This document shows positions 62,391 through 62,798 of a stretch of 64,000 bases of DNA, in pieces. Each line of letters starts with the position of its first letter. Position 1 is the stretch's first letter. This DNA comes from Octopus vulgaris (Eukaryota): the NCBI GenBank assembly GCA_951406725.2, contig OX597820.1:2976001-3040000 (forward strand), written 5' to 3'. The position numbers and the translations under genes were made by a program. The notes below the pieces were generated by a model. That model ran no database searches and had not been told where the DNA came from. It worked only from the letters and a program-made list of their open reading frames with translations.

Positions 62391-62798
62391 AAAATTACTA
62401 TTTTTAAATCTCACAAAAGGAGATATTTAGCAACAGTACTTTGGAGTAAAGATTGTTTGCCAACATAACATGGCAGTCCTGGTTTAGGACGAATGTTGCT
62501 GTAATTTAGCCCCAGGAGACATGATCTGTGTCCTTATATTTTCAAACAAGGGAATCTAGTACCCTCACTCAGCTCAAAACAATTATTCTGTGCTGATGAA
62601 GGGAAATAACCCAGAAATCGTGATACACAGATATTGTTTTGAGCTGAGTGGGGGTGCTAGATTCCCTTGTTCGAAAATATAAGGACACAGATCGTGTCGT
62701 ACAGCCAGCTGGAGACAATGTCTCGTGGGGCTAAATTACAGCAACATTCGTCCTAAACCAGGACTGCCATGTTATGTTGGCAAACAATCTTTACACCA
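62391..62798. mobile_element. Hammerhead-centred fold-back insertion with 11-bp TSD, inside a piggyBac-like MITE
   Basis: Inverted arms 62440-62592 and 62626-62800; aatatgaccag duplicated at 62380-62390 and 62799-62809; host ends ttaaccctttagcatttaaactgg (~61966) and ccagtttaaatgctaaagggttaa (~62829). Confidence 0.75.
62587..62631 (+). ncRNA. Type-I hammerhead forming the loop of a ~360-bp fold-back element
   Basis: tctgtg CUGAUGA a GGG-aaataa-CCC a GAAA UC-GU-GA U A cacaga; stem I continues into ~150-bp inverted arms. Confidence 0.7.

What the first reader, a model, noticed from the sequence alone, without database searches (positions are those of the whole stretch)
62391..62798. Hammerhead exactly at the apex of a 360-bp hairpin, with stem I extended into ~150-bp arms
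Seen: the left arm (62440-62592) is the reverse complement of the sequence that starts at the predicted cleavage site (AUA|cacaga, after 62625), so the catalytic core is the hairpin loop. The unit is bounded by an 11-bp duplication (aatatgaccag) inside a piggyBac-like MITE. Inference: the cDNA or RNA snapped back using stem I as a self-primer during integration, producing a rod-like self-cleaving hairpin. A diverged relative of the arm lies at ~58930-58995.
Basis: partly seen in the sequence, partly recalled or inferred. Interest (0 to 1): 0.75.

Follow-up and report, generated by a model that had tools for sequence, protein, structure and literature searches.

The report
Penelope-type repeat joined at its ribozyme
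This hairpin is one of many copies of a small non-coding repeat that sits in the genome as two head-to-head arms, here meeting at a predicted self-cutting RNA motif, likely because two separately started DNA copies of a jumping RNA were joined through that motif's own stem; the layout is already known from Penelope-type jumping genes.

Summary
The hairpin, hammerhead core, 11-bp duplication and TTAA-flanked host are real. The unit is one insertion of an abundant, ORF-less 350-nt tandem repeat with a type I hammerhead (retrozyme-like). Head-to-head arms are its normal form: 77 of 103 junctions have one arm ending near +204 and the other about 50 nt further on (the Penelope 'tail'), and 67 of 77 carry a duplication of 8 bp or more. 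An intact ribozyme at the tip is the exception: 4 of 51 copies found without regard to the apex, none with this exact junction. Simple snap-back does not fit this copy, because the inverted arm carries a tail that the ribozyme arm lacks, and arms disagree at a polymorphic site in 12 of 37 insertions. More likely, two separately primed cDNAs annealed through the native stem I (6-nt microhomology). Arm ends pile up about threefold at the predicted cut, suggesting source RNAs were cleaved; cleavage is untested and RNA reads show no ends there. Layout and self-priming idea are in print (Arkhipova 2013, Craig 2021, Frangieh 2024); the scan reported the same kind of insertion elsewhere in this genome (e1-9506604). 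New member of a known kind.

The parts
61965..62829 (.). Host: TTAA-flanked palindromic MITE-like element (piggyBac-like termini CCCT...AGGG), interrupted by the insertion
   Evidence: the label piggyBac-like rests on recalled TTAA/CCC termini, no transposase tested
62380..62390 (+). Target-site duplication, left copy (last 2 nt also match the element's tail end)
   Evidence: one copy restores gapless host ends, 57 of 65
62391..62439 (-). Tail (~50 nt, unit positions about +208 to +255), present on this arm only
62440..62583 (-). Inverted, 5'-truncated arm (unit +207 to +40), with a 24-nt deletion after 62522
62578..62583 (.). Junction: 6-nt microhomology shared by the inverted arm and the native 5' strand of stem I
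   Evidence: +40/-15, MH 6
62584..62592 (+). Native 5' strand of hammerhead stem I
   Evidence: same letters precede the core in full tandem monomers
62593..62625 (+). Type I hammerhead core: CUGAUGA, 3-bp stem II with unpaired closing position, GAAA, palindromic stem III; predicted cut after 62625
   Evidence: cleavage not tested
62626..62798 (+). Forward arm from the predicted cut to the non-tail end (unit +33 to about +205)
62799..62809 (+). Target-site duplication, right copy
58862..59037 (+). Single arm of a sister family with its own hammerhead; this copy begins at about that family's predicted cut site

Best explanation
This is one insertion of an abundant ORF-less 350-nt tandem repeat carrying a predicted type I hammerhead, laid down as two head-to-head arms with a one-sided tail and an 11-bp target duplication, likely by a Penelope-type reverse transcriptase/endonuclease acting in trans. 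Shown: family, monomer, arm geometry, two fixed outer ends, duplications, microhomology joins. Inferred: both target strands are nicked about 11 nt apart and each primes a cDNA, one from the tail start (+257) and one from the inner start (about +204). One cDNA stopped near the ribozyme cut, probably by running off a cleaved RNA; the other read through an uncut or ligated ribozyme into the 5' strand of stem I. Two antisense cDNAs can pair only where the RNA is self-complementary, so the native ~50-bp imperfect stem I is a natural annealing site, and repair fixed the hairpin. The ribozyme at the tip is then a by-product, and this copy, with two CpG-type changes in stems II and III and no partner hammerhead, would probably cut poorly.
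For: All 30 loci from the apex query have an inverted arm; 51 of 58 loci from arm-only and tail queries do too. 26 full-length monomer matches of 322-354 nt in 120 loci (two loci fetched twice), several in direct tandems. One tail end plus one non-tail end in 77 of 103 junctions, tail-tail 1, non-tail pair 1, as drawn for Penelope-like elements (PMC8557442 Fig. 2 legend) and matching two RT start sites with nicking and extension of both strands (PMC11167929). Duplications of 8 bp or more in 67 of 77 against 5.75% of 400 mismatched pairs. Microhomology of 2 nt or more in 31 of 45 joins without inserted bases against 16% expected. Tail on the arm without the ribozyme in 18 of 34 apex junctions. 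Arms disagree at +203 in 12 of 37, p 6.5e-6 against 7.2% background. 18 of 77 arm ends between -91 and +120 fall at +28..+45 (cut at +33), rate ratio 3.2, scan-corrected p 0.0025, seen in both query sets. Native monomers already fold a ~50-bp stem I. A sister family keeps the core, the 3-bp stem II and an unpaired closing position (C-A in 10 of 12 motif-matching loci of 25) with different stem I and a different palindromic stem III.
Against: No ORF-bearing parent or partner was identified: no Penelope-like ORF recognised by eye among stop-free frames of 200 aa or more in 120 loci (not scanned against Pfam), so the mobilising enzyme is inferred from geometry alone. Arms agree at +203 more than chance (25 of 37, Fisher p 0.038) and share 6.9% of private variants against 2.9% between copies, so some pairs come from one template or were converted; +203 lies at the non-tail end, where flank or slippage can mimic a difference, and only 37 of the 76 tail/non-tail loci passed the filter. 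A second pile of ends at +64..+81 (rate ratio 2.3) has no cut site and lies near the base of the long stem, so stalling at structure could also explain the first pile. The sister-family pile is weak (4 of 25, p 0.09). No place where many RNA molecules begin or end was seen in three RNA runs. In the one reconstituted Penelope system ribozyme cleavage was not needed for insertion.
Confidence: 0.7

Rival explanations
1. Snap-back self-priming (first reader; Arkhipova 2013 proposed self-priming on an antisense template): one cDNA or antisense RNA folds back at stem I and copies itself, and the one-sided tail arises afterwards by endonuclease trimming.
For: The junction is exactly in register with stem I and recurs at 9 of 30 apex-query loci, with two more in-register joins at +33/-6. 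Slight excess of variants shared between arms. Proposed in print for head-to-head palindromes (PMC3846280 passages); the tail was attributed to EN-mediated resolution.
Against: The inverted arm here is ~50 nt longer than its supposed template. 12 of 37 insertions have arms that differ at a source polymorphism. Most junctions lie away from stem I with only 2-4 nt of microhomology. The tail was later tied to two RT start sites.
Confidence: 0.17
2. A master hairpin with the ribozyme at its tip replicates as a unit (a rod-like self-cleaving element in its own right).
For: Nine loci share the exact +40/-15 junction.
Against: These loci differ in which arm has the tail (L008 against L001-L007) and in +203 state; the junction is absent from 51 loci collected without regard to the apex; arms of one insertion are no more alike than arms of different insertions (93.4% against 93.1% at non-CpG sites, 67 insertions).
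Confidence: 0.05
3. The hammerhead is a passenger that never cut; ends cluster at it only because reverse transcriptase stalls at the three-way junction and stem I offers homology.
For: A comparable pile of ends at +64..+81 without any cut site; no RNA ends at the site; no G-C pair directly before GAAA in the family; low activity of Penelope minimal hammerheads in vitro.
Against: Core, stem II shape and palindromic stem III are kept in a sister family whose stems have changed sequence; a mussel retrozyme of similar size self-cleaves.
Confidence: 0.2

Closest known systems
Endonuclease-positive Penelope-like elements with inverted pLTR and one-sided tail (PMC8557442 passages; PMC3846280 passages; PMC11167929 parts 1-2 of 4)
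   Same: Head-to-head 5'-truncated copies, partial tandems, tail on one end only, duplications of about 9-14 bp, hammerhead in the repeat, two fixed 3' ends.
   Different: No ORF; the unit is a closed 350-nt tandem monomer; tail about 50 nt rather than 30-40; mobilising enzyme not identified here.
Metazoan non-LTR retrozymes (PMC7229834 section 14 and passages; bioRxiv 10.64898/2026.07.22.740005 part 1 of 5 and passages)
   Same: ORF-less tandem monomer of about 350 nt with one type I hammerhead, as in mussel (350-390 bp); palindromic stem III; proposed to be non-autonomous Penelope derivatives.
   Different: Most copies here are truncated inverted pairs, a form that the passages read do not describe ('inverted' 0 occurrences in PMC7229834, 1 in the preprint's references); circular RNA and cleavage not shown here.
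Penelope-associated hammerheads (PMC4209133 parts 1-2 of 4)
   Same: Extra nucleotide after CUGANGA, palindromic stem III expected to work as a dimer.
   Different: Stem II is only 3 bp and has a further unpaired base before GAAA (A-G or A-A here, C-A in the sister family); stem I extends ~50 bp with bulges.
L1 twin priming (recalled, not from a call)
   Same: Both target strands prime; cDNAs join by microhomology, giving an inversion.
   Different: In L1 the two cDNAs copy separate parts of one RNA; here they copy overlapping sequence, giving an inverted duplication.

Membership tests
Non-LTR retrozyme | ORF-less tandem monomer of 170-400 nt | tested here: met
   350-nt monomer; direct tandems in L033, L053, L079, L094 and others
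Non-LTR retrozyme | One type I hammerhead per monomer with conserved core | tested here: met
   core letters at 0.83-0.99 in about 95-110 aligned segments; not called by Rfam
Non-LTR retrozyme | Self-cleavage of the transcript | not testable with these tools
   indirect only: pile of arm ends at the cut; no RNA ends seen
Non-LTR retrozyme | Accumulates as circular RNA | tested here: inconclusive
   reads run from monomer end to start (20-23 per run), but genomic tandems give the same joint
Penelope-like element (insertion type) | Inverted 5'-truncated copy next to a forward copy | tested here: met
   51 of 58 loci from queries blind to the apex
Penelope-like element (insertion type) | Tail on one end only | tested here: met
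   77 of 103 junctions tail/non-tail, 1 tail/tail, 1 non-tail pair, 24 with another end
Penelope-like element (insertion type) | Target-site duplication | tested here: met
   67 of 77 at 8 bp or more, mode 12-13 with one mismatch allowed; control 5.75%
Penelope-like element (autonomous) | RT plus GIY-YIG ORF | tested here: not met
   position -91 is preceded by another monomer's tail, by a junction or by flank, never by a longer body; no such ORF recognised by eye in 120 loci. It works like a Penelope element but is not an autonomous one
Penelope minimal hammerhead | G10.1-C11.1 pair directly before GAAA | tested here: not met
   an unpaired G or A lies between the last C and GAAA; A in the sister family
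Penelope minimal hammerhead | Palindromic stem III allowing a dimer | tested here: met
   self-duplex -10.1 kcal/mol for the family's majority octamer, -3.4 for this copy, -14.9 for the sister family
piggyBac-like MITE (host) | TTAA duplication and CCC...GGG termini | tested here: met
   feature recalled from knowledge
piggyBac-like MITE (host) | Link to a piggyBac transposase | not tested
   no search made

The most novel reading that the evidence does not exclude
These insertions are a genome-scale record of how Penelope enzymes build their inverted ends: a dimeric enzyme copies two RNA units at once from two fixed starts, ribozyme cleavage sets where one copy runs off, and the ribozyme's stem I is the splint that joins the two cDNAs; the palindromic stem III could be what holds the two RNA templates together. 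That would give the hammerhead a role in integration, against the in vitro result that it is dispensable.
Probability: 0.22. Interest if true: 0.65.

Novelty: new member of a known kind. Interest (0 to 1): 0.3.

Why it matters
The role of hammerheads in Penelope-type elements and the origin of their inverted ends are open: self-priming was proposed in 2013 and two RT start sites were shown in 2024, without an account of the join. A large family with fixed outer ends and mappable junctions lets the models be told apart from sequence, and the counts here favour two separately primed copies and hint that source RNAs were cut. The locus itself is an old, decayed copy (about 3.5% from the family majority at non-CpG sites across copies) with no sign of a function of its own.

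Tried and rejected
Rfam: no hammerhead at gathering level in the window, none among 36 matches at E up to 10 in 5 loci. The look-up of sequencing runs listed no holder on record as RNA; this is no evidence either way. Locus-specific transcription: one RNA run (6% read) has zero depth on unique flanks 61900-61946 and 62840-63215; not shown, not excluded. A-to-I editing: seven A>G sites at roughly 15-26% of reads against 2% or less in genomic copies, but RNA-enriched G>A and C>T sites also occur and no DNA of the same animals was laid; unresolved. Empty-site allele: no bridging contig among the rows shown for three contig runs; the host search gave only 2 distant paralogues, so the host's own opposite end was used as proxy. 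First breakpoint script misplaced junctions near indels and was replaced by a gapped version. The first constrained fold failed and was redone by energy evaluation. The idea that the neighbouring hairpin 61570-61803 also has a ribozyme at its tip was dropped: its family's motif is absent from that copy. The search for the 61350-61482 family rang nothing. A look-up of earlier findings by sequence returned nothing. Paper searches listed no paper that maps Penelope inversion junctions against the ribozyme or uses 'twin priming' with pLTRs, and none on retrozymes of the animal group I guessed; the library lacks most subscription journals, and no supplements were read (mussel hammerhead figures in PMC7229834 and the preprint's tables may bear on family identity).

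Full report
Observation. Two pairs of inverted arms, split by a 24-nt deletion in the left arm, enclose the hammerhead core at 62593-62625, and the strand folds as a rod far beyond chance (z -30). The 11-mer at 62380-62390 and 62799-62809 is identical; keeping one copy makes the two ends of the TTAA-flanked host match without gaps at 57 of 65 positions, against 31 and 38 with zero or two copies, which stands in for an empty site. Positions below are counted from the C of CUGAUGA (0); the predicted cut precedes +33.

The family. An apex-spanning query gave 2270 first-look candidates in the 2.8-Gb own genome, 40 scored (not a copy number). Three further queries (distal arm, tail, upstream spacer) brought the set to 120 loci, 115 distinct. 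The unit is a 350-nt monomer: 26 full-length matches of 322-354 nt (two loci counted twice), several in direct tandem. Upstream of -91 lies another monomer's tail, a junction or flank, and I recognised no retroelement-like ORF belonging to it among stop-free frames of 200 aa or more (by eye). In natural monomers stem I already runs about 50 bp with bulges, so the ribozyme sits at the tip of a long stem before any inversion. The letters 62584-62592 are that native strand; the inversion joins at a 6-nt microhomology, +40/-15.

Insertion geometry. Of 103 distinct junctions, 77 have one arm ending at 250-257 and the other at 195-215; tail-tail and non-tail pairs occur once each; 24 have another end. 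Sixty-seven of the 77 carry a duplication of 8 bp or more (mode 12-13, one mismatch allowed, terminal element bases can be included) against 5.75% of 400 mismatched pairs. This is the layout drawn for Penelope-like elements: an inverted 5'-truncated copy and a tail on one end only (PMC8557442, 12 of 19 passages seen; PMC3846280, passages; PMC8969392, passages). For a purified Penelope-type protein both target strands are cut and extended, and the tail is the stretch between two internal RT starts (PMC11167929, parts 1-2 of 4). Size and ribozyme type match mollusc non-LTR retrozymes (PMC7229834, section 14 and passages), recently argued to be non-autonomous Penelope derivatives (bioRxiv 10.64898/2026.07.22.740005, part 1 of 5 and passages).

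Is the ribozyme at the tip the rule? No. Among 58 loci found with queries blind to the apex, 51 have a head-to-head junction; 4 of 51 keep an intact core at the tip, 9 of 51 have any junction close to it, and none has this exact junction. The 9 of 30 repeats of the exact junction come from the apex query and so are selected; they differ in which arm has the tail and in their state at +203, so they look like separate events at a hotspot. Joins use microhomology: 2 nt or more in 31 of 45 joins without inserted bases (6 with insertions left out), against 16% expected. Arm ends are still enriched near the cut: 18 of 77 ends between -91 and +120 lie at +28..+45, rate ratio 3.2; the window was chosen after seeing the data, but the scan-corrected p is 0.0025 and both query sets show it. 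A second pile at +64..+81 (ratio 2.3) has no cut site and lies near the base of the long stem, so stalling at structure is a live alternative.

Snap-back or two cDNAs? A snap-back copy cannot be longer than its template, yet here the inverted arm carries about 50 nt that the ribozyme arm lacks; 18 of 34 apex junctions are so, 9 the reverse, 7 have another end. A snap-back also starts with identical arms. Overall identity says little, since arms of one insertion (93.4%) are hardly closer than arms of different ones (93.1%; 67 insertions, non-CpG sites). At the source polymorphism +203, arms disagree in 12 of 37 insertions that passed the filter, far above background, while agreeing more than chance (p 0.038); neighbouring monomers within one arm differ C/A there in 2 of 9 arrays. 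That fits two cDNAs made from two units of one tandem RNA or from two RNAs. The site is close to the non-tail end, so this evidence is suggestive only.

The ribozyme. Core letters are at 0.83-0.99 across copies; stem II is three G-C pairs with A and G (0.57) or A (0.40) at the closing position, and stem III is a palindrome. The relative at 58862-59037 belongs to a sister family (1961 first-look candidates) with the same core shape, C-A at the closing position in 10 of the 12 motif-matching loci of 25, and different stem I and palindrome sequences. An unpaired closing position is thus shared, not a lesion of this copy. Such hammerheads are expected to work as dimers and cut weakly in vitro (PMC4209133, parts 1-2 of 4). 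This copy has changes in stems II and III that look like CpG decay; its stem III self-duplex is -3.4 against -10.1 kcal/mol, the active-like fold is 5.6 kcal/mol above the minimum, and it has no partner ribozyme in the insertion. It would probably cut poorly.

RNA. Family reads are present in three raw RNA runs (1197-1610 of about 12 million reads each, both directions), with no place where many molecules begin or end. Unique flanks of this locus have no reads in the one run laid. A>G excess at seven sites is compatible with editing of such hairpins but also with a few expressed variant loci.

Earlier notes of the scan (unchecked AI notes) describe a 431-base insertion of the same build elsewhere in this genome and two related cases; they agree with this reading and one gave me the 2013 paper's id. 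They are not independent support. The animal group used in paper searches was my guess from repeat content and genome size, from no call.

Verdict. A real, ordinary-in-kind insertion of a non-autonomous Penelope-type, retrozyme-like family. The striking picture is a minority outcome at a homology hotspot. The family statistics (two fixed ends, discordant arms, ends at the cut) are the part of value, as a test bed for the integration mechanism; I found no paper with such a mapping in searches.

Noticed in passing
window 61350-61482: Second head-to-head hairpin (60-nt arms) with CUGAUGA at 61411 in its 13-nt loop; the same motif occurs in L138 and L140, so a different hammerhead repeat joined near its ribozyme. 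The own-genome search rang nothing.
   Followed up: partly
window 61570-61803: Third head-to-head pair (97-nt arms) in a TA run, from a family with 1423 first-look candidates whose hammerhead-like motif, seen in 6 of 20 loci, is not kept in this copy.
   Followed up: partly
window 47289-47330: Hammerhead-like motif of the Penelope minimal type (CUGAUGA, extra A, 5-bp stem II, GAAA), not at a hairpin tip.
   Followed up: no
window 58862-59037; L144-L168: Sister family with its own hammerhead (GUC cut, palindromic stem III), a tail of similar sequence, and frequent TA-run flanks; 4 of 25 copies begin within 4 nt of the predicted cut.
   Followed up: partly
window 62522/62523; L024: The same 24-nt deletion in the inverted arm occurs at another locus, and an 18-nt one in L011; it removes a small hairpin between short repeats.
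   Followed up: no
L076 junction: Inserted bases at the junction repeat the sequence around the inner start site, as if by stuttering.
   Followed up: no
L092:1624, 1626, 1675, 1681, 1686, 1706, 1759: A>G in roughly 15-26% of RNA reads against 2% or less of genomic copies, including the A of the cut triplet (+32); editing or expressed variant loci.
   Followed up: partly
window 51017-51163: Another tight hairpin (70-nt arms, 7-nt loop) after a TA-rich stretch; no hammerhead core seen.
   Followed up: no
window 26072-26129: Weak tRNA match (32.4 bits), probably a tRNA-derived repeat head.
   Followed up: no
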